Below are positions 605 to 18,142 of a stretch of DNA of 19,425 nt, one piece after another; positions within the stretch are counted from its first letter, which is position 1; the number at the start of each line of letters is the position of its first letter. Origin of the DNA: an uncultured virus (IMG/VR IMGVR_UViG_2841260384_000002) (lineage: Duplodnaviria; Heunggongvirae; Uroviricota; Caudoviricetes); IMG/VR virus record IMGVR_UViG_2841260384_000002, one strand, 5' to 3'. The position numbers and the translations under genes were made by a program. A model generated the notes under the pieces. It made no database searches and had not been told where the DNA came from. It saw only the letters and a list, made by a program, of their open reading frames with translations.

Positions 605-609
605 ATTTA

Positions 610-1464: not shown

Positions 1465-1475
1465 TTGGAGTTATT

Positions 1476-2690
1476 ATGTCTGATACAAATGAATTACTGA
1501 AAAACCTGTCTGCTAAAATCGAAAAAGCGAACAGCGAGTTTAATGCAAAAGCAGAAGAAGCATTAAAAGAAGCCCAAAAAGTCGGCAGCCTAAGTACTGA
1601 AACTAAAGAGGCTGTAGACAAAATGGCAACGGAGCTGAATGCGCTGCGTGAGTCAGAAAAAGCACTGAAAGCATCACTGGGCGATCTAGAGCAACACGTT
1701 GCCCAAATGCCACTGAACAACGCAATTCAAGCAGCGAAAACCATTGGCCAACAGGTGATTTCTGCCGAAGCACTGAAAGATATCAACTCAAGCTTACAGG
1801 CCAGCAAGCGCATTTCCATTCCTGTTCAGGCGGCATTGACTTCTGCGGGTGTTGCTGAAGGGGTTGTTGAACCTCAGCGCTTACCGGGCATTGATGTTGC
1901 ACCTAAGCAGCGTTTATTCATTCGTGACTTAATCGCACCAGGGAAAACGACTTCGCCGGCCATCTTCTGGGTACAGCAAACCGGATTTACTAACGCGGCA
2001 AAAGTGGTACCAGAAAATACCACTAAGCCATACAGTGACATTCAGTTTGCAACAAAAATCACGCCAGTGACCACAATTGCGCACATGTTCAAAGCCTCTA
2101 AGCAAATCTTAGATGATTTCTCTCAATTGCAATCGCTAGTTGATGCTGAAATGCGCTACGGATTGAAGTTTGTCGAAGAGCAGGAAATCTTGTTTGGTGA
2201 CGGCTCCGGTGCTCATTTACACGGCATCATTCCTCAAGCATCGAAGTACAAAGCAGAGTTCGATGTTGATAAGCAAAACGGCATTGATGACCTACGTCTC
2301 GCTATGTTGCAGGCTCAATTAGCGCGTTTCCCAGCAACGGGACACGTTCTGCACTTCATCGATTGGGCGAAGATTGAGCTGCTGAAAGACTCGCTGGGTC
2401 GTTACATCTTAGCTAACCCATCAGCATTAACGGGACCAACTTTATGGGGCCTGCCAATTGTTGTCACCGAAACAGCGGCATTCAAAGGCAAATTCCTGAC
2501 TGGTGCATTTAATGCTGGCGCTCAATTGTTTGACCGCGAAGAAACCAACGTGGTCATCTCTACTGAGAACGCCGACGACTTTGAGAAAAACATGATCTCA
2601 ATTCGTTGTGAAGAGCGTCTTGCATTAGCGCTTAAACGTCCAGAGGCGTTTGTTTATGGTGATTTCACAGCGCCTACCTCGGGTGAATAA
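1476..2690 (+). CDS. Major capsid protein, HK97 fold, with N-terminal coiled-coil scaffold (delta-like) domain
   Basis: 404 aa; helical K/E/A-rich N-terminus; EEQEILFGDG, LKDSLGRYI, TLWGLPIV, FEKNMISIRCEERLAL motifs; GGAG RBS. Confidence 0.96.
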   Translation: MSDTNELLKNLSAKIEKANSEFNAKAEEALKEAQKVGSLSTETKEAVDKMATELNALRESEKALKASLGDLEQHVAQMPLNNAIQAAKTIGQQVISAEALKDINSSLQASKRISIPVQAALTSAGVAEGVVEPQRLPGIDVAPKQRLFIRDLIAPGKTTSPAIFWVQQTGFTNAAKVVPENTTKPYSDIQFATKITPVTTIAHMFKASKQILDDFSQLQSLVDAEMRYGLKFVEEQEILFGDGSGAHLHGIIPQASKYKAEFDVDKQNGIDDLRLAMLQAQLARFPATGHVLHFIDWAKIELLKDSLGRYILANPSALTGPTLWGLPIVVTETAAFKGKFLTGAFNAGAQLFDREETNVVISTENADDFEKNMISIRCEERLALALKRPEAFVYGDFTAPTSGE

Positions 2691-2697
2691 TCCACAC

Positions 2698-2725
2698 AAG
2701 CGGTCATTATGACCGCTTTTTATTT
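2698..2725 (+). terminator. Rho-independent terminator after capsid gene
   Basis: AAGCGGTCA-TTA-TGACCGCTT followed by TTTATTT. Confidence 0.8.
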
Positions 2726-2737
2726 GGGTAAAAGAAT

Positions 2738-2995
2738 ATGAAACTAATCGTATTACGTGCCATTTATTTTGGTGGAAAAGTTGCTGTTGAAGGCGAAACC
2801 ATTGAAACGCTGGAGCTACATGGGCGTGAATTAATTCAAAAAGGCTATGCATCTGAATTAGTTATCGAACACACTACTGAGCAGCAGGAGCAGCAGGAGC
2901 AGCAGGAGCAGCAGGAGCAGCAGGAGCAGCAGGAGCAGCAGGAGCAGCAGGAGCAGCAGGAAGCAAAAAAAACCAAACCTAAAAAGGAGAAATAA
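2738..2995 (+). CDS. Small post-capsid phage protein with (EQQ)9 low-complexity tract and basic C-terminus
   Basis: 85-aa ORF between capsid and connector; stop overlaps the next ATG (TAATG). Confidence 0.75.
   Translation: MKLIVLRAIYFGGKVAVEGETIETLELHGRELIQKGYASELVIEHTTEQQEQQEQQEQQEQQEQQEQQEQQEQQEAKKTKPKKEK
2879..2959 (+). repeat. Perfect 9-bp tandem repeat (GAGCAGCAG)x9, in frame, encoding EQQ
   Basis: 81 nt read directly from the sequence. Confidence 0.97.
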
Positions 2996-3321
2996 TGCTT
3001 TCTCTAGAGGTAGTTAAGTCTCATTGTAATATCGACCCTGAGTTTACGGATGATGACAATATCCTCACGATATACATTGGTTCTGCCATGAAGTATGTAG
3101 AAAACTACACACGTCGAACCTTGTATGAAAATGAATCATCAGAAGGTTATCAGGATGATTCTGACCCGCTGTTGTTAAGTGATGATGTCAAAAACGCCAT
3201 GCTATTACTGATTGGTCAATGGTATGAAAACCGAGAAGCCACCAATATTGCTAATATCACCTCAGCGTTACCGTTTGCGACAGAAGCACTACTTCAACCT
3301 TACCGCATTTACGGGTTATAG
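2995..3321 (+). CDS. Head-tail connector protein (HK97 gp6/SPP1 gp15-like)
   Basis: LSLE.VK.HC.ID...DD and A.LLLIGQWYENRE...LP...EALLQPYR motifs. Confidence 0.93.
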   Translation: MLSLEVVKSHCNIDPEFTDDDNILTIYIGSAMKYVENYTRRTLYENESSEGYQDDSDPLLLSDDVKNAMLLLIGQWYENREATNIANITSALPFATEALLQPYRIYGL

Positions 3322-3330
3322 GGAGGCTGT

Positions 3331-3657
3331 ATGCAAGCGGGCAGACTGCGTCACAAAGTAACTTTCCAGCGTAATGAATTGGTTAAATTACCCTCTGGCG
3401 CTCGTGAAAATCAGTGGGTTGATATTGCTACGACACGCGCTGAAGTTAAGCCAATATCAGGGCGTGAGCTTCTTTCATCCGGTGCCGAAATGTCCGAGGT
3501 AACGGTTCGTGTTTGGATGCGCTTTCGGCGTGATATCAATTCAACGTGCCGCATGGTTTTTAACGGGCTCAACTATGATATTCAGTCCGTTATTCCTGAT
3601 GTGAAAAATACTCGGCTTGAATTACTGTGTAAACAGGGGGTCAAGGCTGATGGATGA
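3331..3657 (+). CDS. Head closure / head-tail adaptor (SPP1 gp16-like)
   Basis: MQAGRLRHKVTFQ, AEVKPISGRE, VRVWMRFRRDI, YDIQSV; GGGAGG RBS. Confidence 0.92.
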   Translation: MQAGRLRHKVTFQRNELVKLPSGARENQWVDIATTRAEVKPISGRELLSSGAEMSEVTVRVWMRFRRDINSTCRMVFNGLNYDIQSVIPDVKNTRLELLCKQGVKADG

Positions 3658-4099
3658 TTTTAATATCGATTTCAGTGGCTTCCTTGATATTGCTAAGGAT
3701 CTGGATGAGCTCAGTAAAGCGGAGAGTAATAAAGTTTTGCGCCAAGCGACCTATGCGGGAGCAGCTGTTCTGCGTGATGAGGTAAGAGCTAATGCGCCAG
3801 TACGAACCGGTAAGCTAAAAAGAAACATTGTGGCTAGTAGCCAGAGAAGCCGGAAATCGGGTGAGGTTTCTGCTGGTGTCTATGTTCGAGGCAGTAATCA
3901 GGATGGTACCAATAGCGACAATTCGATGAAAGCTAAGGATCCGCGCAATGCTTATTATTGGCGATTTTTGGAGGAAGGAACTTCAAAGATGCCACCGGTA
4001 CCGTTTATTCGACCTGCGTTTGATAGTAAAGCCGATGAAGCCGCCAGTGCAGCCATTGCGAAGCTTGATGAGGCGATAGATAAGGTGCTGAGTAAATGA
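3650..4099 (+). CDS. HK97 gp10-family tail/neck component
   Basis: APVRTGKLKRNI and AYYWRFLEEGTSKMPPVPFIRPAFD motifs; ATG at 3650 overlapping the upstream gene is preferred to the 3617 start. Confidence 0.9.
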   Translation: MDDFNIDFSGFLDIAKDLDELSKAESNKVLRQATYAGAAVLRDEVRANAPVRTGKLKRNIVASSQRSRKSGEVSAGVYVRGSNQDGTNSDNSMKAKDPRNAYYWRFLEEGTSKMPPVPFIRPAFDSKADEAASAAIAKLDEAIDKVLSK

Positions 4100-4431
4100 A
4101 AGAAGCTGATTTATTTATACTTCTGGATCCCGTCTTGCCAGAAAAAACGTTTCCTTACGTAGTTACTCATGATAATCCATCAATTACAGCACCTTGGATG
4201 ATATTTTCATTTTATGAAGTTGACGGTGATGTCTTCTCTGGCCAAGCAGAAACCATGACCAATATTCAAATTGATGTTTATGCAAAAAACCCAGATACAG
4301 CTGGCGACTTTTTATCAAAAGCGCTCACCGCCATTCATCCTTTAAGCCCAACCAACATTACCAGAAAGCCAAGCTATGAGCCTGATACGGCACTTTATCG
4401 GGCAACCCTAGAATGCCAAGTTTGGAATTAA
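4096..4431 (+). CDS. Tail terminator/completion protein (DUF3168 / HK97 gp11-like)
   Basis: Position before the tail tube; IQIDVYA and YEPDTALYRATLE motifs; ATGA overlap. Confidence 0.82.
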   Translation: MKEADLFILLDPVLPEKTFPYVVTHDNPSITAPWMIFSFYEVDGDVFSGQAETMTNIQIDVYAKNPDTAGDFLSKALTAIHPLSPTNITRKPSYEPDTALYRATLECQVWN

Positions 4432-4449
4432 CGCCTCATTAACTCCATC

Positions 4450-4472
4450 AACCACCTTCGGGTGGTTTTTTT
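4450..4472 (+). terminator. Rho-independent terminator-like hairpin
   Basis: ACCACC-TTCG-GGTGGT followed by a T run; UUCG tetraloop. Confidence 0.75.
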
Positions 4473-4491
4473 ATGTCTATAGGAAACTGAT

Positions 4492-4986
4492 ATGACAAGT
4501 AAATATGAAAAATCGCAAGGTACGAATTTATTTATTTCAAAGTTACCTGCTGAAGATGTTTCAGCCACCGCAATTGATTTTCTGGCTTTAGGTTGTACGA
4601 CTAAAGAAACTAGCTTTACAGGTGGTCAGAAAACGGATCTGGATACAACCACACTGTGTTCTAAAGAACAGGAAACGATTAACGGTTTACCTGCAGCGGC
4701 AGAGATTTCTATCAATGCCAACTTTTCAGCGGATGACGATGGACAAGAATCATTACGTAAAGCCTATGAAGAAGATACGAAGCATGCCTTCAAAGTTATC
4801 TTCCCATCCGGTAATGGTTATGCATTCCTTGCTGAAGTTCGCCAGCACACATGGTCTGCACCGACTAACGGTATCGTGGCCGCAACATTCACTCTACGCT
4901 TAAAAGGTAAAACAGTACCGATTAAGAACGGTGAAATTGTTAAGCCTGCCACACAATCAGCCCCTATTGTCGAAGGTAAAAAATAA
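4492..4986 (+). CDS. Major tail tube protein
   Basis: MTSKYEKSQGT, FTGGQKTDLDTTTLCS.EQE.INGLP and FKVIFPSGNGYAFLAEVRQHTWS are typical of HK97-like tail tubes; 164 aa, so no C-terminal Ig-like extension; AGGA RBS. Confidence 0.9.
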   Translation: MTSKYEKSQGTNLFISKLPAEDVSATAIDFLALGCTTKETSFTGGQKTDLDTTTLCSKEQETINGLPAAAEISINANFSADDDGQESLRKAYEEDTKHAFKVIFPSGNGYAFLAEVRQHTWSAPTNGIVAATFTLRLKGKTVPIKNGEIVKPATQSAPIVEGKK

Positions 4987-5357
4987 TGGCGAAGAAACCA
5001 AGTTTACGAACGCTGGCGCTTAATGCGGATCAGGCTTTTCGTAGCAAAAAAGTTCACGTTGCAGAATGGGGTATTGATGTATTAATTAGAGAGCCATCGA
5101 TTAAGGCGCGCTTATCTTGCACTGATTTAGTCAGTGGAAAGGATGGGGAAGAGCTCACATCAACACAAAAATCGCTTCGCAATATTGAAGGCGATGTTAT
5201 TTTGTTTATCGATATTCTCCGTGAAGAAGATGGTAGTCAAGTATTCACCGATAAAGATAAACCAGCTCTCATGGAAACGTATGGTCCAGTGCATGCGCGT
5301 TTATTGGCTGAAGCTTTTTCACTAACTATTTCAGCTACTGAGGCTGAAAAAAAGTAA
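4986..5357 (+). CDS. Tail assembly chaperone (lambda gpG analogue)
   Basis: Follows the tube gene; V.EWG..V.IREPS and YGPVHARLL..A motifs; ends at a slippery site. Confidence 0.88.
   Translation: MAKKPSLRTLALNADQAFRSKKVHVAEWGIDVLIREPSIKARLSCTDLVSGKDGEELTSTQKSLRNIEGDVILFIDILREEDGSQVFTDKDKPALMETYGPVHARLLAEAFSLTISATEAEKK
5348..5354 (+). other. Programmed -1 ribosomal frameshift slippery heptamer A-AAA-AAG (G to GT)
   Basis: GCT GAA AAA AAG TAA; the -1 frame reads VKEPETFFL and then runs into MTLALRLGKTL (5381) with no stop. Confidence 0.85.
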
Positions 5358-5665
5358 AAGAACCGGAAACATTCTTTTTAATGACGCTGGCACTCCGCTT
5401 GGGGAAAACCTTAACTGAATTAACCCATAATATGGATGCCAGCGAGTTAAGAATGTGGATGGCATACGACAAGGTAAGTCCTATTGGGGATCGTCGTGGT
5501 GATATTCAAACGGCAATGGTAGCAACTGCAGTGTTAAATGCAGCAGGTGCAAAAGTGTCGGTTAGTGAGCTTATTCCTGTTTGGGATGATGAGGTTGTTG
5601 CCGCAAATGAACCTGAGAATAAACAGGATCCGTTGGAGGCGTGGTTGAGCAGTATGTCTGAATAG
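5354..5665 (+). CDS. Tail assembly chaperone frameshift extension (lambda gpT analogue)
   Basis: LALRLGKTL.EL...M.ASELRMW.AYD..SPIGD.RGDIQ.A motif; no evident RBS before ATG 5381; open in the -1 frame from the slippery site. Confidence 0.85.
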   Translation, partial: VKEPETFFLMTLALRLGKTLTELTHNMDASELRMWMAYDKVSPIGDRRGDIQTAMVATAVLNAAGAKVSVSELIPVWDDEVVAANEPENKQDPLEAWLSSMSE

Positions 5666-5697
5666 TTATATAGTAGGCTCATTAATTTATTAATGAG
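5645..5697 (+). promoter_or_regulatory. Candidate sigma70 promoter of the moron, followed by a perfect 8-bp inverted repeat
   Basis: TTGAGC (5645-5650), 18 nt, TATAGT (5669-5674); CTCATTAA-TTTA-TTAATGAG (5678-5697). Confidence 0.45.
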
Positions 5698-5706
5698 ATT
5701 ACTTAA

Positions 5707-6096
5707 ATGAAACAGGCACTAATTAAAACTGTCATCGCCTTTATTATTTTTACTGCAGTCCTACTGTCGCCATTCCTTTTTGATAAGTTAGGTTCTAGTA
5801 ATACTGATTCAAAGAGGTTTGTAAAACAAACAGAAGAGTTGCTAAAGGAAGAATACAGAACATCAGATATTAAATTTTACAGTTCTTTTTATACGGATCG
5901 TGGGTACGAAAAATACACAGGGGCAGTATGTGGATACGTTATTAAATTAGATCATGCAGAAGATGACAATAATGAATATAGAAAATACTACGCATTAGTG
6001 GTTAATGATGGAAAAAACATTATCAGCGTGACTGATGTTGATTTTGATATATACGTCAGCTTTGATAGATGGAACAAATATTGCGACAGACAATAA
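5707..6096 (+). CDS. Moron: AT-rich membrane-anchored/exported protein of unknown function (candidate superinfection exclusion)
   Basis: N-terminal hydrophobic helix (VIAFIIFTAVLLSPFLF); two Cys (AVCGYV, WNKYC); lower GC than neighbours; own terminator; inserted between T and tape measure. Confidence 0.75.
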   Translation: MKQALIKTVIAFIIFTAVLLSPFLFDKLGSSNTDSKRFVKQTEELLKEEYRTSDIKFYSSFYTDRGYEKYTGAVCGYVIKLDHAEDDNNEYRKYYALVVNDGKNIISVTDVDFDIYVSFDRWNKYCDRQ

Positions 6097-6101
6097 ATGA
6101 T

Positions 6102-6125
6102 GACCGCCTAGGCGGTCTTTTTTTT
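6102..6125 (+). terminator. Rho-independent terminator of the moron
   Basis: GACCGCCTAGGCGGTC palindrome followed by T8. Confidence 0.85.
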
Positions 6126-6135
6126 GGAGACGAAA

Positions 6136-6950
6136 ATGTCTAAATTACGTGAGTTAATCTTAAAGATTACTGCTAATTCGTCAGGTTTTCAGGCGGAAAT
6201 TAGTAAAGCTTCTCGAATTAGCAATGATTTTTATAAAAATGCGGCCAGTGGTAGCCGTCAATTGCGACAGGAATTAACTCAGCAGAAAAAGGCATTGGCG
6301 GAAATAAATAATCAACTTACAAGTGTTGCTATGACCGCAAGAGGAATGGCTGGCGCTATGGCTGGCTTTTTTTCAGCATCGGCAATGATCTCTACTGTAG
6401 ATAGCTGGGGACAAATGGCGGCACGAATAAAAATGTCGCTTAATTCGGTAGAGGGTTCAACTAAATCTTATGAGCAGCTTCAGCAGCGATTTTTATCAGT
6501 CAGTAACCGTAATGGTAAATCAATAGAAACCACACAAGAACTATATGTTGGCTCTGCTACCTCAATGAAAGAGTTAGGTTATAACACCTCTCAGACTATT
6601 GATTATATTGAATCACTTTCTTCTATTTTTACAGCTAATGCAACCAGCGCTCAACAAACTGAATCAGCAACTACTGCATTAAGCCGCTCAATGGTAAACG
6701 GCAAAATAAGCGGCAATGACTGGCATTCTGTGATGAATTCTATGCCAACGGTACTGCGTGATATCGCTGCTGAATTATCACGTACCAGCGGTGGAGTGAA
6801 AGTCACTGAAAACGATGTGAAAAAACTCGCCATGAATGGTGGTATCTCGATGAAGCTATTTGCCGATGCCGTGATCCGGGCAAAAGAGGCAAATAATGCG
6901 CTTGCTGATTCTATGGATAATACAGTTGAAGATGGCTTTACTCGTGTAGC
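6136..6950 (+). pseudogene. Tape measure protein, N-terminal fragment (split by the inversion)
   Basis: MSKLRELILKITANSSGFQAEI..ASR is a typical lambdoid TMP start with GGAG RBS; tape-measure domain (LSRSMVNGKISGNDWHSVMNSMP). The frame runs into inverted DNA after ...FTRVA and stops at 6963. Confidence 0.92.
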
Positions 6951-7472
6951 AACACTCCAATAACCCCGACCATTCTTATCCGCTTGTATAAATATTTTTT
7001 GCCGAAACACACAATAGGAAACCGTGGATTCTTGGGTGATGGCTCTAAAGTTATCAACGGCAGCATCTATCTGCGAGTTAATAAAAAGCCCATAAGAGTC
7101 TTGCGGGGCTTCCTTCAGTACGCCGTATAAGAAAAAGTGGGAGTTACCATCACTCCCAGGCAACCAACCCGAATCACCGCCCCACCAGTCATAGTTACAA
7201 TAGAATGTATCGCCCGACACCCAATAACTCCCGATACTCACGCCCTGCACAGAACCGTAAGCAAGAAAATGACACAATGCTGAAGGTACAATGACCACAT
7301 TGTATTTCGACATTCCAGGTACATAGACTGACTTATTTTTTTGATATCGCTGTGGGTTGAGTGGATGAATAACAATATGCTTTAAGAAGGTTAGCGGGTA
7401 AGAATTATTGGTGATTTCAATCGGCTTCCCACCATCTTTAGGGTTAATAAACAATCCATAATCGTCACTCAT
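6951..7472 (-). pseudogene. Post-J tail tip accessory protein, N-terminal 174 codons (split by the inversion)
   Basis: ATG at 7472 (MSDDYGLFINP) with GGAGG RBS and ATGA overlap with the J stop; internal YGLFIN duplication; continues in frame at 15714 after re-inversion. Confidence 0.85.
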
Positions 7473-10400
7473 ACTGGACGCCTCCCCAGTTTTACAGCCC
7501 ATCGTTTGCTTTCGTCAAACACAGCCACTCCAGTGTTATCAACCAGTAATTGTCCATCATCACTAACGATTCTAAAGTTTCCGCTAATAAGAATATTGTG
7601 ACACTCAATTTCGCCCGTTTTAGCGTCAATATTAAAACCAACTTTACCAGGAACGTAANNNNNNNNNNNNNNNNNNNNNNNNNNNNNNNNNNNNNNNNNN
7701 NNNNNNNNNNNNNNNNNNNNNNNNNNNNNNNNNNNNNNNNNNNNNNNNNNNNNNNNNNNNNNNNNNNNNNNNNNNNNNNNNNNNNNNNNNNNNNNNNNNN
7801 NNNNNNNNNNNNNNNNNNNNNNNNNNNNNNNNNNNNNNNNNNNNNNNNNNNNNNNNNNNNNNNNNNNNNNNNNNNNNNNNNNNNNNNNNNNNNNNNNNNN
7901 NNNNNNNNNNNNNNNNNNNNNNNNNNNNNNNNNNNNNNNNNNNNNNNTTCGCCTTGCTTGAATTCAGCTTGCATCTTGGTATTGATTAACGCTTCCTGGT
8001 CTTTAAATTTTACTTGCAGCTGGGTTTGCGACTCTGCAAATGCGCCATCTAATTTCGCAACAGCCTTATCTAGCGTGGCAACCTCAGATTTCACGCCGTT
8101 AATGGAGGCATTGACCGTCGTGTACTTCTCAGCCCAAGCCAGTTCACTGTCCGCATACACACGCCATAGCTCTTTAATTTGAGCTTGCGACTGTCCATGC
8201 TTAACGAATAAATCCTCTTGAAGCTCATAGGTCGCAGCCATGTTGATTAGGCATGCCTCATTAAGCCAGTCGAGTGTTTTATCAAGCTGCTTACCCGCTT
8301 CGGCAGTCATAAAATGCTCATCAAGTTCTGGCATGATAGTATTCACGTCAAACTCAGACTCTCCACGAACAAATGAGGTCCATTCAGATTCATTGCCTGA
8401 TTTATCCACCAGCCTCGCTCGAAAGTAAAAAGCAATACCAGCAGCTAAACCTGCTAACTCATGAGAACGCGAGGGGTAAGGAACATCAGCAAGCAACATA
8501 AGCCCATTACCATCATTGGTTTTGCTGTACTGAATCTCAGTCTTTAACGTGTCGCTAGTGTTTTCACCAAAGCCCCAATCAAGCTTAATGCCGAACACGA
8601 GCGGAGAAGCTCTAAAATTCACAGGCTTAGGTGGGTTCCCTACCTTTCCGGTCAGTGTTGTTTCTGGCGCATTCGCCCAAATGCTGGAAATTTCAGACGC
8701 ATTAACCGCTCGAACTCGCACTTGATATCGACCAGAATAAACGCCCTCAATATCAAACCCCAGTGATGATGTCCTTGGTGCATTGACCCAGTTCCCGTTA
8801 TCACGACGCCATTGCGCTTCATAAGCAATCGCATTTTCAGCCGCGTCCCAACTGACACTGAGCGTAGTCAACGCCATGCCTTGGTCAACTCTTGAGTAAG
8901 ACGTGATTTCGACCTTTTTCGGTGCAGGCTGAACGCGAGGCGGAATAACCGTTACGGGACGTTCGTCAATGCGAGCACCTGAATCGATATGGTCATAATG
9001 GTCAGGATTATGGATAGCACCGCTAATGGTGTAAGTGTTATCGCCGTTATCGCTGATATTAATCACTCGATATAGCTGGACCGCTAAGTCATCAGAATCT
9101 ACGACCCATACAGCCTCTTTTTGCGGTACCTGCGAGTATTCGACAGAAACCGTGACCACTTTCTTGTTTACCGAAGTAACAGTACGCCCTTCTGATTTTC
9201 CATCAGGCAGGTTGATGATCAGGCGGTCACCCGCTTTAATTGACGTGACTCTATCAAGAGTAATGTTTCGCCCATTCGCTGAGGAGATACGTCCCCCGGT
9301 GTCACTCCCCGCCAAGTTCGAATCAGCTACGGCAATGATATGACCAGGAGAAGGGATCGCCCCTTCTAGCCCAGTAGCAAAGGTGATCATGCGGTCATTC
9401 GCATTCGTGAGTAATGCCCAACGCCCGCGACGATTTGCTTCACTTTGTCGAGTGCAACCAATCGCAGAAAGCTCGACTTTACGCACCATTTTATAGCGGC
9501 GCTGTAAGTTTAAATCTGATACCGCCTCGACTTCATCATTACTGTGGTTATTCATATTGCTATATGAAACTAGCGCTTGCGTATATCTTGTTTGGGAGCT
9601 ACCACCTGAATAGGTTGGTTTTCCTCCGACAATATTGGCATTGGTGAACGTACGGAAGATACTGGATGGCATGTCTGCAACCGCATTCACTTTATTATCA
9701 GCCCAGAAGGTCATGCCACGGAATATCGCCGCAATGTCACGCAGTACGGTGTAGGCTGATTCTTGTGATTGAATATATACATCACACAAAAAACGCGGCT
9801 CTTTGCCATCACCGCCTCGTCCATCCGGTACCAATTCATCACAATATTGTGCGATCTTATACAAGTCCCACTTTTCAATCTGAGAAGGCTTTATTCGGTC
9901 ACCACAACCATAACGATTATTGAGCACTAAATCATAAAATACCCAAGCCGGGTTATTTGTTGCTGCCAGTTTAAAGGTACCGTCCCATACCCCTGAATAG
10001 GTCCGATTAATCGGGTCATAATTCGTGGGCACTTTGATAAGCAAGCCACCTTTTGAGCGGACGCTAATCTTGGGGATCCGGTTATTGAATTGACGCGCAT
10101 TGAACGTCACAAACAGAAGCGCGGTATTGGGATAACGCAACTTTGCATCAATCACCTCAGTCACGGCCGCAATCGTCACTTTATCGGCAATACGGGCGGT
10201 ATTCTGATTCTTAGTGAGCCGGCGAACACGCAATTGCCAACCTGTAGTGGCTTTGGGTAAATCGACACGATGGGTACGCTGATATTCACTTGTCGTTTTT
10301 CCATCGAATGCAGACTTAACCAGCTCTTTATATCCAGCCCCATCCGTGGATAAATCAATAGCGTAATCAATACGGTAGCCTGTCGTGTCGCCATTGTCAT

Positions 10401-10788
10401 GCTGGTGCATTAATTGCGGTACCGAAAAGCGAACACGAATAGCGGATAACTGAGTATTATTAATTGTTCTGACGTACGGCTGATCGTCTTTCAGTTCCAT
10501 CCCGACGGCAATATCATTATCCACGGAGGGAATGCCTTGAATGTATTCTTGTTGTTCACTGCCAGATCTAAACTCCCACGTCACACCCTCAAAATTTTTG
10601 GTACCGTCTAAGTTACCAATCGGTGTATCGTCGAGGAAAATACGGGTATCATCCAAACCACCGGCTATTTCACCCTCCGAAATCGCTAACAGAATTTTTG
10701 CGGTAGATTCGGATAGCAAACTGTCTTTTGATTCGACTGGCGTATGTCCGCCACCACCACCGCCTTTGGCGCCGTATATCGTTTCCAT
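7469..10788 (-). CDS. Tail tip / host specificity protein (lambda gpJ-like central fibre), interrupted by an N gap
   Basis: GAKGGGG..HTPVE..D.L.S, LLAISEGEI, YPNTAL, W.G.FK.A.TNNPAWV.YD, EPRF.C motifs; FN3-like repeats; coiled coil. The true post-gap frame is YVPGKVGFNIDAKTGEIEC...VKLGRRPV*, ending at 7469. Confidence 0.93.
7659..7947. other. Assembly gap / masked stretch of 289 N inside J
   Basis: Run of n in the sequence. Confidence 0.99.
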
Positions 10789-10799
10789 ATTTCACCCAT

Positions 10800-10823
10800 A
10801 AAAAAAGCGGCAATTAAGCCGCT
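10800..10823 (-). terminator. Rho-independent terminator-like hairpin between I and J
   Basis: Minus strand AGCGGC-TTAATT-GCCGCT followed by a T run. Confidence 0.7.
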
Positions 10824-10844
10824 CGTGTTAACGTGTTCGTTTTG

Positions 10845-11447
10845 CTATTTCTGATCTTCGGTATAAATCCCCGCTGAAATAATCGCGCCGCCAACTTCTC
10901 GACGGTCTAGCCCATATAAAAGCGGTACCGGATTACCTTGCGCTGTCGTATTCACGGCGCCACCAAAGGCATAAGAAGGTTTATTGTCTGCATCTTGTCG
11001 CATCGATAAACCACTAGGCTGAGGTGAGAGCATTTGTATAACACCACCCAGCGCCATTGCAGCACCGGTCATCGCAGCAGTGCCAGCCCATCCACCCGCA
11101 GTAAATGCAGCCCCTAAGCCACCAGTGAAATATGTTGCCGCCGCAATTAAAGCAACACCAATCACAGTCTGGAAGAAACCACCCCGCTTACTGCCTTTGA
11201 TTACCGGAGCAATGCGAATTTCTTCTCTTGTATCAAGATGCAATTCATCTTCAGTAATATTGCGTTGACCTTTGAAAATAGCAAATTCCAGCCCTCTCAG
11301 ATGCGCATTGGCAAGGAATTGCTCGAATCCATCATAGAGTACCGATAACGCTTTAATCGCTTCACGGGGAGAATCGATAGCAAGCCGATGTTCGCGACCA
11401 AATTGGGTACCCAAAACACCATAGAGCCGTATTGTTTTTAAACTCAT
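10845..11447 (-). CDS. Tail assembly protein I (lambda gpI-like)
   Basis: IRLYG.LG..FGR, IRIAPVI.GSK.GG.FQ, Gly/Ala hydrophobic segment, SYAFGGAVNTTAQGNPVPLLYG. Confidence 0.93.
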   Translation of the reverse strand: MSLKTIRLYGVLGTQFGREHRLAIDSPREAIKALSVLYDGFEQFLANAHLRGLEFAIFKGQRNITEDELHLDTREEIRIAPVIKGSKRGGFFQTVIGVALIAAATYFTGGLGAAFTAGGWAGTAAMTGAAMALGGVIQMLSPQPSGLSMRQDADNKPSYAFGGAVNTTAQGNPVPLLYGLDRREVGGAIISAGIYTEDQK

Positions 11448-12154
11448 GCCAGCTCCTTGCGTCGTACTATCTTGACCGTTCTATCGCGCCAATAGTCGCT
11501 GTAAGGAACAATGCGACTTAGCTGCCCGTAAAGATGGTGTAGAAGCATGCCATTCACTATCACACCGGCATGATTAGGGACATTTGCTTGCACTTGCATC
11601 ATGACCATATCACCGTCTTTTATGTCACCAGAAAACTCAACAAACCCTTCTTGCTGCCAGTTATCCATATACAAATTTTCACCACACTCCCACCAGTGAT
11701 GATCGACGCTGTAGTTATGCAGATCAATACCGTGTGCCTGTCTGTAGTAATCCATAATGAGTGACCAGCAATCAGCATGACCTAACACAAATGGGCGCCC
11801 TTCTAATTCACGTTCTGCGCGAGGATGAATAGTTCGAATGTCACCTTCTGGCCATGATGCTATTACCCACGGCAACCCCGTCGCATCACACTGCAACTTA
11901 TCTATTTCACTAGGTTGAGACGTCACCCCATCCCCGCAATGACTATGCACAATCGCTATTGGATCGCCCCAATCTTCAGCAGTGGCATAATCTTCCGGGG
12001 AAAGTTCAAAGTGTTCAGTAGGATTATCTGAGAGGTTACGGCAAGGAAAGTATTTTTTGACTCGGCTTTTTTGGCAAATCACGCCACACACTTCTTTGGG
12101 ATATTCCGCTTTTACATGCTGAAATATCACCTCCGTTAATTTCTTTGTGATCAT
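11444..12154 (-). CDS. Tail assembly protein K (JAB/MPN + NlpC/P60, lambda gpK-like)
   Basis: YPKEVCG, IVHSH...PSE.D (JAMM motif); GRPFVLG..DCW and NHAG...LHH (NlpC/P60). Confidence 0.94.
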   Translation of the reverse strand: MITKKLTEVIFQHVKAEYPKEVCGVICQKSRVKKYFPCRNLSDNPTEHFELSPEDYATAEDWGDPIAIVHSHCGDGVTSQPSEIDKLQCDATGLPWVIASWPEGDIRTIHPRAERELEGRPFVLGHADCWSLIMDYYRQAHGIDLHNYSVDHHWWECGENLYMDNWQQEGFVEFSGDIKDGDMVMMQVQANVPNHAGVIVNGMLLHHLYGQLSRIVPYSDYWRDRTVKIVRRKELA

Positions 12155-12894
12155 CGTATTAACCCCGCTGCAGGGAACCCTCCAAAATCCAAAGGCTCAT
12201 TCTCACCAAAGCGTTTTTTACAGTCGCTAATTAGCCCGCCGCATTTATCTAATGCCGGATCATCAACCGGCTCACCACGCTCATCGAAATATTTATTGCC
12301 CGTATAATTGCAACCTCGCCCGCTTCGATAATCACCTTTCATGCACCAGGAGCAGAGGTTATGGATTTGTCGAGCGGGGATCATGACTCCCTGCAAATCA
12401 AACGGGCTAGATAACTCGAACTCAACCACTTCGCCTGCCACTTCATTGCTTTTACTATCAATGTAATAAACTTGCGTAAAGCACTCTTCAGGGTTAGCCG
12501 TAGGGTTTCCATCAGGAAAATTTTTAGCGTCAAGATAATGAGCGAAGGTTTCATAAATCGTGACTTTTGCCAGCGCCATATCATCAAACTGCAAACATAA
12601 TGATGAAATAACACTATTGACGTTTGAAACTCTAAATTTCGGTCTAGCTTGCGCACCGTCACTGTTTTTGGACATTCCTTCAATTTGATAAGGGTACGCC
12701 CCATATTCATTGCCTTGCCACCAGATAGAACGCGGGGCAAGTTCATCACCTGCCCCCTTAAGCTCTTTTTCGGTATAACGTAAGTTATAGGCATGAAAGC
12801 GCAGAATCGGACCATCAAACGCACTGGCATCCACTTCAACTAACTGTATTCGACTTCCCGGCTCCAGCATTTGAACGTCTGCAGTTATTTTCAT
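12151..12894 (-). CDS. Minor tail protein L (lambda gpL-like)
   Basis: IWWQGNEY, FELSSP.D, and C-terminal Cys cluster C.W....YRSG.GC.Y.G...D.C.G..SDCKKRFG....FGGFP. Confidence 0.94.
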   Translation of the reverse strand: MKITADVQMLEPGSRIQLVEVDASAFDGPILRFHAYNLRYTEKELKGAGDELAPRSIWWQGNEYGAYPYQIEGMSKNSDGAQARPKFRVSNVNSVISSLCLQFDDMALAKVTIYETFAHYLDAKNFPDGNPTANPEECFTQVYYIDSKSNEVAGEVVEFELSSPFDLQGVMIPARQIHNLCSWCMKGDYRSGRGCNYTGNKYFDERGEPVDDPALDKCGGLISDCKKRFGENEPLDFGGFPAAGLIR

Positions 12895-13226
12895 GAGCTA
12901 AATGCCTCAATAAATGTCGTCATTAATGAATATTTACCGCCACCCAGCGCACTAGGCTTGTATTGTTCACATCGAAATAGCCCTTGTGGTCGGAGTGGTG
13001 GCTTCCAAATAAAAGACTTATACCCACTGTGGCGATCAAAAAAGGCAACAATCTGTTCGATCATTGCCTCTTCACCCACAAACTCAAGTTGCCAACTATC
13101 AGAGCGGTTGTTTAACCCATCGCCCGCAGTTTGTGTATATCCATCACCGAACTGGGCTTTTTTGACTCTGAATGTTGTATCACTTTGCGCATTAATACGG
13201 GGACACCAAGTGAACGTTTCTATCAT
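12891..13226 (-). CDS. Minor tail protein M (distal tail, lambda gpM-like)
   Basis: ETFTW.P, AQFGDGYTQ..GDGLN and FFDRH.GYKSF.W.PP motifs. Confidence 0.94.
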   Translation of the reverse strand: MIETFTWCPRINAQSDTTFRVKKAQFGDGYTQTAGDGLNNRSDSWQLEFVGEEAMIEQIVAFFDRHSGYKSFIWKPPLRPQGLFRCEQYKPSALGGGKYSLMTTFIEAFSS

Positions 13227-13231
13227 ACAGT

Positions 13232-15713
13232 TTACCTTCTTCTGTTAATTAGCTGCCAAAGCGGCGTTCCCTCTCTCGATGCCTGCTCATTGACGGTATT
13301 AACAATTTCGTTTTTGAGTTGCTGCTTAGCACCACTCACGTCACCTATTGGCTGCTGCTCTTTAGATCCATCGCTGATCAGGTTGATATCGCCAACATCG
13401 ATATTGATAGCATTATTAGATGTGATTGCTGTTGTGCCATTTTGAACATTTTCCAAGCCAAGAACGCGTACGCCTAATGAACCATCAGAGCCTCGGGTTA
13501 AAGGCATGATTGCTTCAGGCCCCGCTTCTCCCATCAAACCAGCACCTTTTGCGAAAGCAAACATAGTTGGCGAGTTAACAATTTGTCCACTGTAAGAGCT
13601 CAAGCTAGGTGAATCATAAACACCCCCTTTCGCATTCGGGACAATGGAGCTCATTAAGCTTCCGAATCCCCCGCCGAAATAACTCCCCGCCGCTTTCATT
13701 GATTGAACAAGCGCCATATTAATAAGGACCTTATCAATACTTTTCAGGACGTCGATTGCCCAGCTTTTCCAATCGGCTTTATTGCCAACCAACATGTCGG
13801 AAATATTATTCACCATCCCTGACATTGCCGATTGTGTTGCGCTTGCCGCCTGTCCTGCGTAGTTGCTAGCATCATCAACCCAGTTTTCCAAACCAGCTTT
13901 AACGCCAGAACGCCAGTCAGTTTCAGCAAGAACGGCTTCCTTGTATTTTTTATTCAGTGCATCCAAGGCATTTTGCCGAGCTAATAAAGCCTCGGTACCG
14001 CCATCCGTTTTACTGAATACCCGCTCAACTTGCTGGCGCTCCTCTTCGAGACTGCGGCGACGATTGCCCATACCCACAGTACTTCTCGCTAAAGCGGCAT
14101 CATCGTTATATTTGCGTGTTGCGTCCTTCAGTTCTTTCAATGCATCCGTCATTTCACGCTGCTTACGCACGGCTTCATCGGCTTTTTGCGTCCATTCCGC
14201 CAGCTCAACTGCAGATGATTGAATGGATTTTCGCTGTTCATCCGTCCACTTAGATCCGGTTTCATGCGCAGCGGCATAAAGTGCCGCAGCTTTTTCACCC
14301 TGCAAGGCACGAACACGCTGGACTTCAGTCGCAACCGTCAGGTCGGCCATTTTATCTTTGTATCGTTCAGTGACGCGGTCGGCTTCTTTTGTCAACGCGG
14401 CACCAGTCTTGAGGGATTTATTCATCCGCTCACGCTCATCAAAAGCTTTCAGCCTATTATTTATATAGTGCTCACGATGGGTTTTATATTCATCTCCAGT
14501 AAATCCAGCTTTATCTAACTCCCACTCACTACGCTGCTTAACTTGATTACGCTGACTCATGCTAGATAGCTGACGCTCACGTTCTGCATTAAGCATCATT
14601 TCCTTTTGCTCATCATTAAGCGATGCAGGAAGTGAACCTGTCGACATTGGCGCTTGCGCTAACAACTGCCTATTTGACAGTAGGTTATTACCTATTGAAA
14701 GTATCCGGTTAAATTCCGACTCTTTGGCTATTTCTTGCCCTAATAAAGCTAACTTACTATTAGTTAAGTTATTTCTATGCTCATTCAGCCTATTGGAAAC
14801 AGAAACTGTATTTTGCTGAGTTTGCTGCATATTTAACAAGCGCTGCTCTTCAGCTTTTAATTGCTTTGTTAATTCAATAGCTAAAGATAGTTGTAATTGT
14901 TGTTGTTCGCTGGTGAATGTGTCATTTTCTGAATTTTTATAATGCCTCTCTATTAGATTTTTATAGTTTTGAATTTTATTCAGTTGATCTTCTATGCTTC
15001 TTGTTTGAGCCTTGATCGAGTCATCAGCTTTTTTTGCCTCATCAGAGACTTCCACTAATGACATACTTTTTGTTCTAGCTGCTATATCATCTAATGCATT
15101 AGCATACTCAACCGCTGATTGATGCGCCGCTTCTTGCTGTTGCTTGACTGCATACCATGCACCAGCGCCCAGCATAATTACACCGGGCAACCCGCCAACC
15201 AGAGACAGCAAGCTTTTAGCGCCAGAAATTACCGCACCACCAGCCATACGAAATCCATTCAGCGCTTTTCGTGATGCAAGCAATCTTTCGTTAGTTACAA
15301 TCTCTTGATTGCTTAGAGCGACTAGTGCCTTGGTATTTTTCTCTAGCTGTCTATCAAGTATTAGTCGTTCCTTGTCCGTTGCTGCTACCATCTTTTTAGT
15401 CACTAATGATTGACGAGTATCGAGAAGCAACTGCCTCTCATCTTTGATTCGCATCTGAGTGACTTCAAGAGTTCTCACCTGCTCCTTGTTATAATTAAGT
15501 TGTGATAAGTATCCATTAACAGTTTCTTTAGCTAGATTTTTAGTGTTAATAGAAAGATTTCCGAGATATCGAGAAAGTCCAATTCCAATAAGTGCATATC
15601 CAGCAAGAGCAACCTTATCAAAATTATCTCCCAAAAAAGCTAATTGAGCGGACATAGTGCGTGTTATCCCCATGCTGCTATTTAGCTCACCAAAGTAAGA
15701 TTTTGCTGAGTTT
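13232..15713 (-). pseudogene. Tape measure protein, C-terminal fragment (split by the inversion)
   Basis: Long helical ORF with lambda-type TMP C-terminus (DWRSGVKAGLENW, NAKGGVY, FAKGAGLMGEAGPEAIMPL.R..DGSLGV). Frame is open back to the junction (NSAKSYFGELNSSMGIT). Confidence 0.92.
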
Positions 15714-16208
15714 CCGGATTCTATTCCTAACCGTAACTCGGTCTGTGTATTTATTCGACCTGAAAATACAAGTCAAACAATACGCTATGACAGACCGAAT
15801 AACCGGATAATTTCGCTAGAGTCTGGCTGGGTATATGTTGTGATATTTGCGTCCGGGTTAAATCTTCAACCTTCCGATGGGCTAACGATTTGGAACCGAG
15901 AGGGCAAGGTAGTCTTCAACTCCGAGTACACACCGTTTTATAACAATGGGCAGATAGTTAACACGAGCAATAATGTTGCCACCAGTAAATTTGATGTCCC
16001 GATGTTTACGATGGATAGCCCTAATACATGGCTGGAGAATGAGGGGAATACCGTTAACTGCTACATGTCTGGATTTAGGGTGTCAGGGAAACAGCTTATA
16101 GCGAAAAGGATGTGGACCATCGGTGATTACCCCACGTATGCCAACTACATGTACAACAAGATAGTGTATGCCGGCAGCTATGCCATAGACTTCAACGACT
16201 ACTTCTAA
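15714..16208 (+). pseudogene. Post-J tail tip accessory protein, C-terminal 164 codons (split by the inversion)
   Basis: Open frame from 15714 (PDSIPNRNSVCVFIRP...VYVVIFASG...GLTIWNREGKVVFNSEYTPF...DFNDYF*), the same frame as the listed 15840 ORF. Confidence 0.85.
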
Positions 16209-16224
16209 AACTCAATTCAACGAT

Positions 16225-16248
16225 AAGCCGCTTAATTGCGGTTTTTTT
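16225..16248 (+). terminator. Rho-independent terminator-like hairpin before the tail fibre gene
   Basis: AGCCGC-TTAATT-GCGGTT followed by a T run. Confidence 0.7.
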
Positions 16249-16270
16249 GCGTCAAAATTTTGGAGTTAAT

Positions 16271-17884
16271 ATGATTTATCAAACAGGCACAATCGCAACC
16301 ACGGCAGGACAAACAAAAATAAAAGGTACAGGAACGCGCTGGAAAGATAACTTAGCCGGTATCTCCGAAGGCTGTCCAATCTCTTATCTCATCAATAACG
16401 TTGTTTACATGAACACAGTGTTATCCGTGAATTCAGATACAGAGATTAACCTCACTTACCCGGTACCGGTTGCAGCTTCAGCAGCAAAGTATCAGATTGC
16501 GACATTCGTTCTGGACAGCATGAGCGATGGTGTTCGCAAGATGCTAGCGAATCAGCAGTATATCCAGTATTTCCTGCGCAACATGGACGCATGGCTAACG
16601 CAAGATGGCATTGTTGAAGTCAAAACTCCGACAGGGGAAACGGTAAGACTCGAAAGTATTAGAGCTCTAAAATCTCTCATTGATGCCAAATTGGATGACT
16701 CCGCACTCAATGGGTACGCAACAACAGAAAGTGTTAACTCCGCACTCAATGGGTACGCAACAACAGAAAGTGTTAACTCCGCACTCAATGGGTACGCAAC
16801 AACAGAAAGTGTTAACTCCGCACTCAATGGGTACGCAACAACAGAAAGTGTTAACTCCGCACTTAATGATAAGTTTGATAAAAAAGGTGGCGCTATATCT
16901 GGGGCTATTGATGTCGGTGGAAACATCACATCAAAAAATGATGTAATTCAAGTTACAAATGAAAGAACAGGAAACAACATCCAGTTAGATACAACGGTAG
17001 CTGGAAGATTAAGAATAAATACCAAACCAAACGGAGGGACGTGGTTAAACCATCTTCTACCAGCAGCTAGTGGAACGCTAATGCAAGTTGGTGATTATGG
17101 GGTTGGGGCCACTTACACGCAGCAATTAATTAAAATTACAGATTACAGCAGCGCAGTCAATCAGACATTGGGGTTTATATATAACGATAGTGGGGCAATT
17201 AGTGCACCATCTGCATGGGGCGGTGGTATTCGTTTTGGACGAGATCCAAAAGCATCATCTAGCATATTGTATTCACCAGACTGGAACACAAGACTATTTC
17301 TGTCAGCCGGATTAGCAAATGGGAAAATGTCAGATTGGGTTGAATTTTACTCGACGGGAAATACGACAGTAGATACTCAAGGAAATATCAAAAAAGCCTC
17401 ACCGGTTATAAAGCTTTTTGCTGATAGTATTGATTCTAACGAAGAAGCTGAAGGCGTCGAAATGGAACACCTTGGTATAGGTCATTATCTCATTAAAGGC
17501 GTCATCGGTTTTAATGCTGATGGTGCATGGGGTATTAATAATGGCTTTGTCATTCCTCAAGACCATAATGGTAAAAACATGGTTCTCATTGATTACGAAG
17601 TGAGACCGGATGGCGATATTGAAGTGTTTGTTTTCCACCAACAGAACGCAGATATGCCAGAACGTTTCCAGAACAAGCGCATAAAGTACTTTGATGAAGA
17701 GGGTGCGCCTGTTTACTTTGAAAACTATGAGCCGTGTGATGTTCCAGAATCCCGCTGGATAGATATGCGTGTCGAAATGCCACCTAACTCTATCTACAAT
17801 CAGAAGTTAGCTGAAGCAGAGAGGCTTGCTAAATTAGAAGCGGAGCGAGTGGCGCGAGAAGAGGCTTATACAGCTGCAAGCTAG
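16271..17884 (+). CDS. Side tail fibre / receptor-binding protein (537 aa)
   Basis: ATG 16271 with GGAG RBS. N-terminal anchor MIYQTGTI......IKGTGTRW; GTLMQVGDYGVG; NTTVD..G.IKKASPVIKLF leading into a C-terminal domain of the type seen on enterobacterial siphophage fibres (PCDVPESRWIDMRVEMP). Confidence 0.88.
   Translation: MIYQTGTIATTAGQTKIKGTGTRWKDNLAGISEGCPISYLINNVVYMNTVLSVNSDTEINLTYPVPVAASAAKYQIATFVLDSMSDGVRKMLANQQYIQYFLRNMDAWLTQDGIVEVKTPTGETVRLESIRALKSLIDAKLDDSALNGYATTESVNSALNGYATTESVNSALNGYATTESVNSALNGYATTESVNSALNDKFDKKGGAISGAIDVGGNITSKNDVIQVTNERTGNNIQLDTTVAGRLRINTKPNGGTWLNHLLPAASGTLMQVGDYGVGATYTQQLIKITDYSSAVNQTLGFIYNDSGAISAPSAWGGGIRFGRDPKASSSILYSPDWNTRLFLSAGLANGKMSDWVEFYSTGNTTVDTQGNIKKASPVIKLFADSIDSNEEAEGVEMEHLGIGHYLIKGVIGFNADGAWGINNGFVIPQDHNGKNMVLIDYEVRPDGDIEVFVFHQQNADMPERFQNKRIKYFDEEGAPVYFENYEPCDVPESRWIDMRVEMPPNSIYNQKLAEAERLAKLEAERVAREEAYTAAS
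16698..16863 (+). repeat. Perfect 39-bp tandem repeat, 4 copies plus a partial fifth, encoding SALNGYATTESVN
   Basis: ACTCCGCACTCAATGGGTACGCAACAACAGAAAGTGTTA at 16698, 16737, 16776 and 16815; partial copy at 16854. Confidence 0.97.
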
Positions 17885-18142
17885 ATAGAAAGGTAATAAT
17901 AAATATAGCCATCTAGAGAAGTTAGCGTGTTTAAATTTCATTTATTACTGGAATTGTGGAGACTTCACTAATATAGTTACGCCTAACTACATTACATAAA
18001 TTTAATTTGCTCAATAATAGTTTAAATACAAATAAATATAATATTTGATAAGTTCCACACTTTCTTCATTTACTAACATTAATATATTGATTTTTGTCTT
18101 ACGTATGGTAATTATTGGGTAAATTTCATATAGGAAGCTTTT

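What the first reader, a model, noticed from the sequence alone, without database searches (positions are those of the whole stretch)
6951..15713. Base-precise 8.76-kb inversion that splits two tail genes and flips the whole tail tip module
Seen: the segment carrying TMP-C, M, L, K, I, J and the first half of the post-J gene faces against the late operon. The left junction is ...CGTGTAGC|AACACTCC and the right is ...GCTGAGTTT|CCGGATTC. Flipping 6951-15713 rebuilds a 1098-aa tape measure (6136-6950 + 15713-13232; ...FTRVA-NSAKSYFG...) and a 338-aa post-J protein (7472-6951 + 15714-16208; ...RGYWSV-PDSIPNR...), with no nucleotide lost, gained or duplicated. No IS, no long inverted repeat and no N gap sits at either junction, and neither half-gene shows decay. 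Inference: this is a very recent event. As written, the prophage could make heads but not tails. Options are (a) a one-off inactivating rearrangement, (b) a reversible intragenic ON/OFF switch for tail production, or (c) an assembly or in-silico artefact. The sequence alone cannot separate these.
Basis: partly seen in the sequence, partly recalled or inferred. Interest (0 to 1): 0.9.

Follow-up and report, generated by a model that had tools for sequence, protein, structure and literature searches.

The report
Tail-module inversion absent from sequencing reads
The 8.8-kb flipped block is truly in the text of this window, but independent assemblies of the sequencing runs that carry the identical prophage, and every related prophage found, have the ordinary unflipped gene order, so the flip is most likely an artefact and not biology.

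Summary
Reverse-complementing 6951-15713 rebuilds an intact 1098-aa tape measure gene and an intact DUF6453 gene behind J. It also puts the whole lambda/HK97-type tail module in line with the head genes. The breakpoints are base-precise with only 2 bp of ambiguity. There is no inverted repeat, IS or invertase.

The arrangement is not supported by outside data. Run X15 holds 98% of the window's sampled words with no differing letter. One of its Logan contigs runs from J through both halves of the post-J gene into the tail fibre gene. The contig ending at 15713 continues with the exact reverse complement of 6921-6950. Runs X16 and X17 show the same colinear joins; X18 contigs run on past both sides of the junction. 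No contig bridges 15713/15714 as written. A 90%-identical provirus (G001) and 13 of 13 related Providencia loci are colinear. The two junction 40-mers occur in none of the three collections scanned.

Odds: artefact of the record (assembly or in-silico edit) about 0.85; real one-off inversion in an unsampled strain about 0.11; reversible switch about 0.03. Interest is low.

The parts
32..6096 (+). Head and proximal tail genes of a lambda/HK97-type siphovirus prophage. They are portal (32-604, cut by the window start), protease 610-1464, major capsid 1476-2690, adaptors and completion proteins 2995-4431, major tail 4492-4986, chaperones 4986-5665, and an unassigned ORF 5707-6096.
   Evidence: PHROGs matches. 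The head genes are 80% identical in DNA to Proteus phage vB_PvuS_Pm34.
6136..6950 (+). N-terminal 271 codons plus 2 bases of the tape measure gene, cut off by the left junction.
   Evidence: phrog_339 positions 3-250 of 1123. Pfam TMP_3 is cut at 179 of 192. In run X15 this end is joined to 15713, not to 6951.
6950..6953 (.). Left junction of the text, 6950|6951, with a 2-bp ambiguity up to 6952|6953.
   Evidence: A 40-mer across it has 0 matches in viral contigs and genome contigs.
6951..7502 (-). N-terminal half of the post-J DUF6453 gene. It starts at 7502 or 7472 and is cut at 6951.
   Evidence: phrog_1265 positions 2-162 of 332. DUF6453 positions 1-145 of 291. It is 98.3% identical in protein to Providencia relatives.
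7492..10788 (-). Central tail fibre / host specificity gene J. It contains a 289-base N run at 7659-7947.
   Evidence: phrog_31 and phrog_2589, N run. It is 99.3% identical in protein over 947 aa to a Providencia alcalifaciens DSM 30120 contig.
10845..13226 (-). Tail tip genes I (10845-11447), K (11444-12154), L (12151-12894) and M (12891-13226).
   Evidence: phrog_32, phrog_30, phrog_18 and phrog_14.
13232..15713 (-). C-terminal 827 codons of the tape measure gene.
   Evidence: phrog_339 positions 265-1122 of 1123. Pfam Phage_HK97_TLTM and Tape_meas_lam_C.
15711..15714 (.). Right junction of the text, 15713|15714, with the same 2-bp ambiguity.
   Evidence: No contig of 4 runs bridges it, and in X15-X17 both sides continue into the colinear partner. 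A 40-mer across it has 0 matches in viral contigs and metagenome contigs.
15714..16208 (+). C-terminal half (164 aa) of the post-J DUF6453 gene.
   Evidence: phrog_1265 positions 215-332. DUF6453 positions 192-289. It is 100% identical in protein to L009, L010, L017 and L018.
16247..17884 (+). Tail fibre gene.
   Evidence: phrog_1591. Pfam Phage_tail_C_2.

Best explanation
The inversion belongs to this record's text, not to the prophage. The underlying DNA is an ordinary, intact, colinear lambda/HK97-type tail module of a Providencia prophage: tape measure, M, L, K, I, J, a DUF6453 protein, then the tail fibre. Somewhere between the reads and the window, the stretch 6951-15713 was reverse-complemented in place. 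Two routes are possible, an assembly or finishing error or a deliberate or accidental in-silico edit, and I cannot tell them apart. Three features fit a text operation better than a short-read assembler error: the exchange is perfectly reciprocal, nothing repeated lies at the breakpoints, and there is no N gap there. Shown: the colinear joins exist in public runs and in all relatives found, and the inverted joins were found nowhere. Inferred: the run holding 98% of the words represents the same strain as the window.
For: (1): run X15 holds 0.98 of the 1034 sampled words of 7948-17900. X16 holds 0.95 and X17 holds 0.72, in the same study under other organism labels. X18 holds 0.49 in another study.
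(2): 15 of 15 X15 contigs laid are at least 99% alike, with no differing letter in the listed pieces. X15 record 1 (2763 nt, depth 11.6) covers 8716-7948 on the minus strand and 15712-16727 on the plus strand. This is reported as an 'opposite strands' joint, and it is the colinear order J, post-J N-half, post-J C-half, fibre.
(3), table 7: the loose end behind 15713 appears in X15, X16 and X17, and the loose end before 15712 in X16 and X17. One search shows they are letter for letter the reverse complements of window 6921-6950 and 6953-6982, which are the colinear partners. X18 record 29 runs 2484 nt on beyond 15713, and record 30 has 206 nt before 15712. X18 has no listed loose end at either place, so its partners were not seen.
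(4) No listed contig of any of the 4 runs bridges 15713/15714 as written.
(5) G001, a provirus about 90% identical, is colinear. The flipped window gives 5 blastn matches in one order and orientation, and two of them run through the junction positions.
(6) 9 of 9 viral loci and 4 of 4 genome loci have the post-J gene in one piece (348 aa), directly behind J on the same strand. The genome loci are from Providencia alcalifaciens DSM 30120, Providencia sp. PAZ2 and P. rustigianii DSM 4541. L018 has every gene from tape measure to fibre on one strand. Three pairs of loci are the same contig filed twice, so there are about 10 distinct places.
(7) The junction 40-mers have 0 exact matches. The left one was scanned in viral contigs and genome contigs, the right one in viral contigs and metagenome contigs.
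(8) There is no mechanism in the sequence. Microhomology is 2 bp, and the junction neighbourhoods are 12 of 60 alike in inverted orientation, where chance gives about 15. None of the 25 longest inverted-repeat pairs shown (of 157 found) has arms at both junctions. No recombinase or IS appears among the 24 ORFs scanned.
Against: The window's own assembly is not held, so I could not show that X15 is its source. Runs from people and some pathogens are left out of the run index (tool text), so the true source run may be invisible. All four runs are Logan contigs, which drop rare variants and show presence, not absence. Only the right junction stretch (7948-19425) was laid. The left junction is covered only indirectly, by the loose end and by X15 record 1. 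Short-read assemblers rarely make an internal inversion without a repeat at its ends, so 'assembly error' has no clear route either. The collections may leave out the window's own record (notes under), so 0 matches there is weak evidence.
Confidence: 0.85

Rival explanations
1. This is a real, one-off, non-homologous inversion in the particular strain behind the record. It would be a clonal sister of the strain seen in runs X15-X17. The inversion would inactivate the tape measure and DUF6453 genes and leave a prophage that can make heads but not tails.
For: The text is clean. Both half-genes are undecayed and the exchange is exact. A real event this recent would look exactly like this.
Against: A prophage with no differing letter is colinear in X15, and nearly identical ones are colinear in X16 and X17. 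Relatives otherwise differ by about 10%, so identity this high suggests the same strain or sample. A perfectly reciprocal exchange, with no base lost or gained and only 2 bp of microhomology, is unusual for illegitimate recombination (established knowledge, not tested here). The junctions were found nowhere.
Confidence: 0.11
2. This is a reversible, enzyme-driven ON/OFF switch of tail production. It would flip the whole tail tip module between two sites that lie inside genes.
For: The exchange is conservative, as in site-specific recombination, and the 2-bp overlap recalls the 2-bp crossover of serine invertases (recalled, not tested). Contigs cannot exclude a rare second orientation.
Against: Site-specific inversion needs a pair of inverted repeats (PMC10028968, passages read). 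There are none here: the neighbourhoods are 12 of 60 alike and no repeat pair sits at the junctions. No invertase or other recombinase appears among the 24 ORFs of the window. X15 record 1 passes straight through the colinear join without a graph break. G001 and 13 of 13 related loci are all in one orientation, whereas a switch should be caught in both.
Confidence: 0.03
3. This is a scaffolding error: an 8.76-kb contig was placed in the wrong orientation between two others.
For: In run X15 the Logan contigs of this region are short, at most 3.6 kb, so a draft assembly would be fragmented here.
Against: Scaffold joins normally carry N gaps or lose or duplicate bases, and here neither junction has an N, a gap or an overlap. 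Contig ends do not fall at the breakpoints in X15: record 1 crosses the colinear post-J join. This rival is a sub-case of the best explanation and its odds are included there.
Confidence: 0.1

Closest known systems
Tail module of lambda/HK97-type siphoviruses; the closest cultured relative found is Proteus phage vB_PvuS_Pm34 (KY420199.1, Hendrixvirinae)
   Same: After flipping, the gene order matches the order annotated in Pm34: chaperones, tape measure, minor tail proteins M and L, K, I, J-type fibre, further fibre genes. The head genes are 80% identical in DNA and the tape measure is 40% identical in protein.
   Different: The window text has the block from mid-tape-measure to mid-post-J gene reversed. 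Pm34 has no DUF6453 gene behind J, and it has an extra ORF between K and I.
Colinear Providencia prophages: G001 (IMG/VR provirus), Providencia sp. PAZ2 chromosome (L018), P. alcalifaciens DSM 30120 contigs (L017, L019)
   Same: They carry the same genes. G001 is 87-92% identical in DNA. The post-J halves are 98-100% identical in protein and J is up to 99.3% identical.
   Different: All are colinear, and none has either breakpoint.
Site-specific DNA inversion switches: Hin/Gin/Cin/Pin tail-fibre and flagellar switches, and intragenic invertons (PMC10028968)
   Same: A DNA segment is inverted with no base lost, and the breakpoints lie inside coding sequence, as in intragenic invertons.
   Different: Those systems are defined by inverted repeats at both ends and a recombinase (passages of PMC10028968 read). 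Here neither is present, the segment is 8.76 kb across seven genes, and no second orientation is seen.
Repeat- or IS-mediated chromosomal inversions
   Same: Both are large inversions within a genome.
   Different: No IS and no long inverted repeat lies at the junctions.

Membership tests
Site-specific invertible segment (serine or tyrosine invertase switch, inverton) | A pair of inverted repeat sites at the two boundaries | tested here: not met
   The junction neighbourhoods are 12 of 60 alike in inverted orientation, and the overlap is 2 bp. None of the 25 longest inverted pairs shown, of 157 found, has arms at both junctions.
Site-specific invertible segment (serine or tyrosine invertase switch, inverton) | A recombinase gene next to or inside the segment | tested here: not met
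   24 ORFs were scanned against PHROGs and 9 against Pfam. There was no recombinase, resolvase or integrase match. DNA beyond the window could not be tested.
Site-specific invertible segment (serine or tyrosine invertase switch, inverton) | Both orientations present in a population or among close relatives | tested here: not met
   4 of 4 runs, G001 and 13 of 13 loci show no inverted form. Contigs cannot exclude a rare minority.
Lambda/HK97-type siphovirus tail module | Gene set and order: tape measure, M, L, K, I, J | tested here: met
   All six families were found. The order is colinear once 6951-15713 is flipped, as in Pm34 and L018.
IS- or repeat-mediated inversion | IS copies or long inverted repeats at both breakpoints | tested here: not met
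Scaffolding artefact | N gaps, or lost or duplicated bases, at the joins | tested here: not met
   No N lies within 700 bases of either junction. The alignment to relatives across the flipped post-J join is ungapped.
Artefact of the record (arrangement not present in the sequenced DNA) | Independent read-derived sequence of the same DNA lacks the junctions and has the alternative joins | tested here: met
   X15 (0.98 of words, no differing letter) has both colinear joins and no contig across 15713/15714. Caveat: it is not proven that X15 is the source sample.

The most novel reading that the evidence does not exclude
The inverted form exists in cells as a rare subpopulation, or in the source isolate. 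It would be made by a conservative recombination that needs no recognisable inverted repeats and would act as an intragenic ON/OFF switch of tail assembly in a Providencia prophage. Contigs, which drop rare variants, would not show it.
Probability: 0.02. Interest if true: 0.85.

Novelty: not a real feature. Interest (0 to 1): 0.07.

Why it matters
If real, an exact repeat-free inversion that splits two tail genes would be either a very fresh prophage-inactivating event or a new kind of switch. The evidence says the DNA in nature is colinear and intact, so the value of this result is as a caution. A clean, base-precise rearrangement in a single record is not evidence of biology until reads or relatives confirm the junctions. 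What lies underneath is an ordinary and probably functional Providencia prophage tail module.

Tried and rejected
- The window's own assembly is not held, so no search of the genome around the window was possible.
- megablast of 6500-7400 against cultured phages gave no match. The whole window matched cultured phages only in the head genes and a fibre fragment.
- Exact scans for the two junction 40-mers found nothing in viral contigs, genome contigs or metagenome contigs. The collections may leave out the window's own record, so this is weak evidence.
- A search of metagenome contigs for relatives of the post-J C-half found none.
- An Rfam scan of the window gave 0 matches.
- Four look-ups of earlier findings of this scan were made. 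Three found nothing for this genome, place or sequence. The word search returned only unrelated tail-fibre invertase cases in other genomes.
- I considered gix/hix-type sites at the junctions. I rejected the idea because the two neighbourhoods are unlike each other. No consensus scan was run.
- I did not lay reads on the left junction or on the N run. Reads were laid on the N-free stretch 7948-19425.
- Parts of that stretch without listed contig cover in a given run (table 8) are not taken as evidence of anything.
Full report
WHAT IS IN THE WINDOW

The window is the late operon of a lambda/HK97-type siphovirus prophage. On the plus strand lie the portal, protease, major capsid, adaptor and completion genes, the major tail gene, two chaperone ORFs, and then the first 271 codons of a tape measure gene.

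From 6951 to 15713 everything faces the other way:
- the first half of a DUF6453/phrog_1265 gene;
- J;
- I, K, L and M;
- the last 827 codons of the tape measure gene.

From 15714 the plus strand resumes with the second half of the DUF6453 gene, a tail fibre gene and two genes of unknown function.

The split genes match consecutive parts of single profiles:
- phrog_339: positions 3-250 and 265-1122 of 1123.
- phrog_1265: positions 2-162 and 215-332 of 332.
- DUF6453: positions 1-145 and 192-289 of 291.
- Pfam TMP_3 is cut off at 179 of 192.

Reverse-complementing 6951-15713 in a script gives a 1098-aa tape measure protein. It also gives a post-J frame of 338 aa, or 348 aa from the ATG at 7502, the length of the G001 homologue.

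The flipped text aligns without any gap over 300 bases centred on the post-J join:

| Locus | Identical bases of 300 |
|---|---|
| L018 | 295 |
| L019 | 292 |
| L008 | 286 |
| L010 | 285 |
| L020 | 204 |

An ungapped block also covers the tape measure join in L018 and in L006, which is part of G001. So the breakpoints are base-precise.

The only ambiguity is 2 bp: AA at 6951-6952 is the complement of TT at 15712-15713. No N lies at a junction, but a 289-base N run lies inside the block at 7659-7947.

NO MECHANISM IS VISIBLE

- The two junction neighbourhoods, compared in inverted orientation, share 12 of 60 bases. Chance would give about 15.
- Of 157 inverted-repeat pairs in 6000-16700, none of the 25 longest shown has arms at both junctions.
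- None of the 24 ORFs scanned against PHROGs, and none of the 9 scanned against Pfam, is a recombinase, transposase or integrase.
- Site-specific inversion, including the intragenic invertons of PMC10028968, works on a pair of inverted repeats recognised by a recombinase (passages read). That defining feature is absent here.

RELATIVES ARE ALL COLINEAR

The window's own assembly is not held. The nearest held record, provirus G001, is 87-92% identical over most of the window. Its pieces lie in the order and orientation of the flipped window, not of the window as written. With the flipped text, blastn gives 5 matches in a single order and orientation, and two of them run straight through the junction positions.

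A search with G001's intact 348-aa post-J protein found 9 loci in viral contigs and 4 in genome contigs. The genome loci are from Providencia alcalifaciens DSM 30120, Providencia sp. PAZ2 and P. rustigianii DSM 4541.

In 13 of 13 loci the two halves are adjacent codon to codon on one strand, directly behind J. L018 carries every gene from the tape measure N-terminus to the fibre on one strand. Three pairs of these loci are the same contig filed in two collections, and L008 is G001 itself. That leaves about 10 distinct places, 9 of them beyond G001.

The closest cultured phage, Proteus phage vB_PvuS_Pm34, is annotated colinear as well.

READS

Run X15 holds 0.98 of the 1034 sampled words of 7948-17900. 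X16 holds 0.95 and X17 holds 0.72, in the same study under other organism labels. X18, from another study, holds 0.49. I laid these four runs, all kept as Logan contigs, on 7948-19425.

In X15, 15 of 15 laid contigs are at least 99% alike and the listed pieces have no differing letter. The colinear joins are seen as follows:
- X15 record 1 (2763 nt, depth 11.6) covers 8716-7948 on the minus strand and 15712-16727 on the plus strand. It is reported as an 'opposite strands' joint. This is the colinear path J, post-J N-half, post-J C-half, fibre.
- The contig that ends its match at 15713 continues, in X15, X16 and X17, with 30 reported letters. These are exactly the reverse complement of window 6921-6950, the tape measure N-terminal piece.
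- The contig that begins its match at 15712 is preceded, in X16 and X17, by the exact reverse complement of 6953-6982.
- X18 record 29 carries 2484 further bases beyond 15713, and record 30 carries 206 bases before 15712. No loose end is listed for X18 at either place, so its partners were not seen.

No listed contig in any run crosses 15713/15714 as the window has it. In X15, X16 and X17 the window's novel junctions are therefore replaced by the colinear joins, and in X18 both sides run on into sequence other than the window's.

Exact scans for 40-mers across the junctions found nothing. The left 40-mer was scanned in viral contigs and genome contigs, and the right one in viral contigs and metagenome contigs.

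INTERPRETATION

The DNA seen by independent assembly of reads is identical to the window except for the orientation of this block. Related prophages differ from the window by about 10%. A copy with no differing letter therefore points to the same strain or sample, although I cannot prove that X15 is the source.

The most likely reading is that the inversion arose in making the record, through an assembly or finishing error or an in-silico reverse-complement of a stretch of text. The perfectly reciprocal exchange, with no repeat and no N at the joins, fits a text operation better than a short-read assembler error. The two cannot be separated here. I put the artefact at about 0.85.

A real one-off inversion in a clonal sister strain remains possible, at about 0.11. 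Its run may not be served, since runs from people and some pathogens are left out of the index. A reversible switch is at about 0.03. It fails the repeat, recombinase and two-orientation tests, and is kept alive only because contigs drop rare variants.

LIMITS

- Only contigs were available, not raw reads.
- Only the right-hand stretch was laid. The left junction is covered indirectly, by the loose end and by X15 record 1.
- The collections may leave out the window's own record.
- No DNA outside the window could be searched for a recombinase.

VERDICT

It is not supported as a property of the organism. It is filed as not a real feature, with low interest.

Noticed in passing
window 7659-7947: A 289-base N run lies in the C-terminal part of J. 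Between the flanks, both provirus G001 and the X15 contig have 17 bases fewer than the window text. The N run is therefore probably not length-true. The apparent J stop at 7492 depends on a frame set by the N run. In G001 the J frame ends 23 bases further on and overlaps the post-J start by 34 bases.
   Followed up: partly
window 7472-7502: The post-J DUF6453 gene probably starts at the ATG at 7502, giving 348 aa, the same length as the G001 ORF.
   Followed up: partly
window 10801-10823 and 16226-16248: Two similar GC-rich hairpin-plus-T-run sequences are 87% complementary as written, so they would be direct repeats in the colinear layout. One lies between I and J, the other between the post-J gene and the tail fibre gene. 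They look like terminators.
   Followed up: no
window 5707-6096: A 129-aa ORF between the tail chaperone genes and the tape measure gene has no PHROGs or Pfam match. Proteus phage Pm34 has no gene at this place. It may be a moron.
   Followed up: no
window 18143-19425: Two genes of unknown function lie behind the tail fibre gene. One matches phrog_28486 with a weak DUF7946 hit just below Pfam's cut-off. The other matches phrog_31922 and is cut by the window end.
   Followed up: no
window 8600-10500 and 16200-17850, runs X16 and X18: Besides the identical copy, X16 and X18 carry contigs 90-99% alike in J and in the fibre region. Related prophage variants therefore co-occur in those samples. X18 and X17 contigs diverge from the window before 8609, in the C-terminal part of J.
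   Followed up: no
L011, L013, L014, L015, L020: The post-J DUF6453 gene is 71-100% identical in protein in these loci, but it sits behind J genes that are only about 33-36% identical to the window's J. It therefore travels with different tail tip modules.
   Followed up: no
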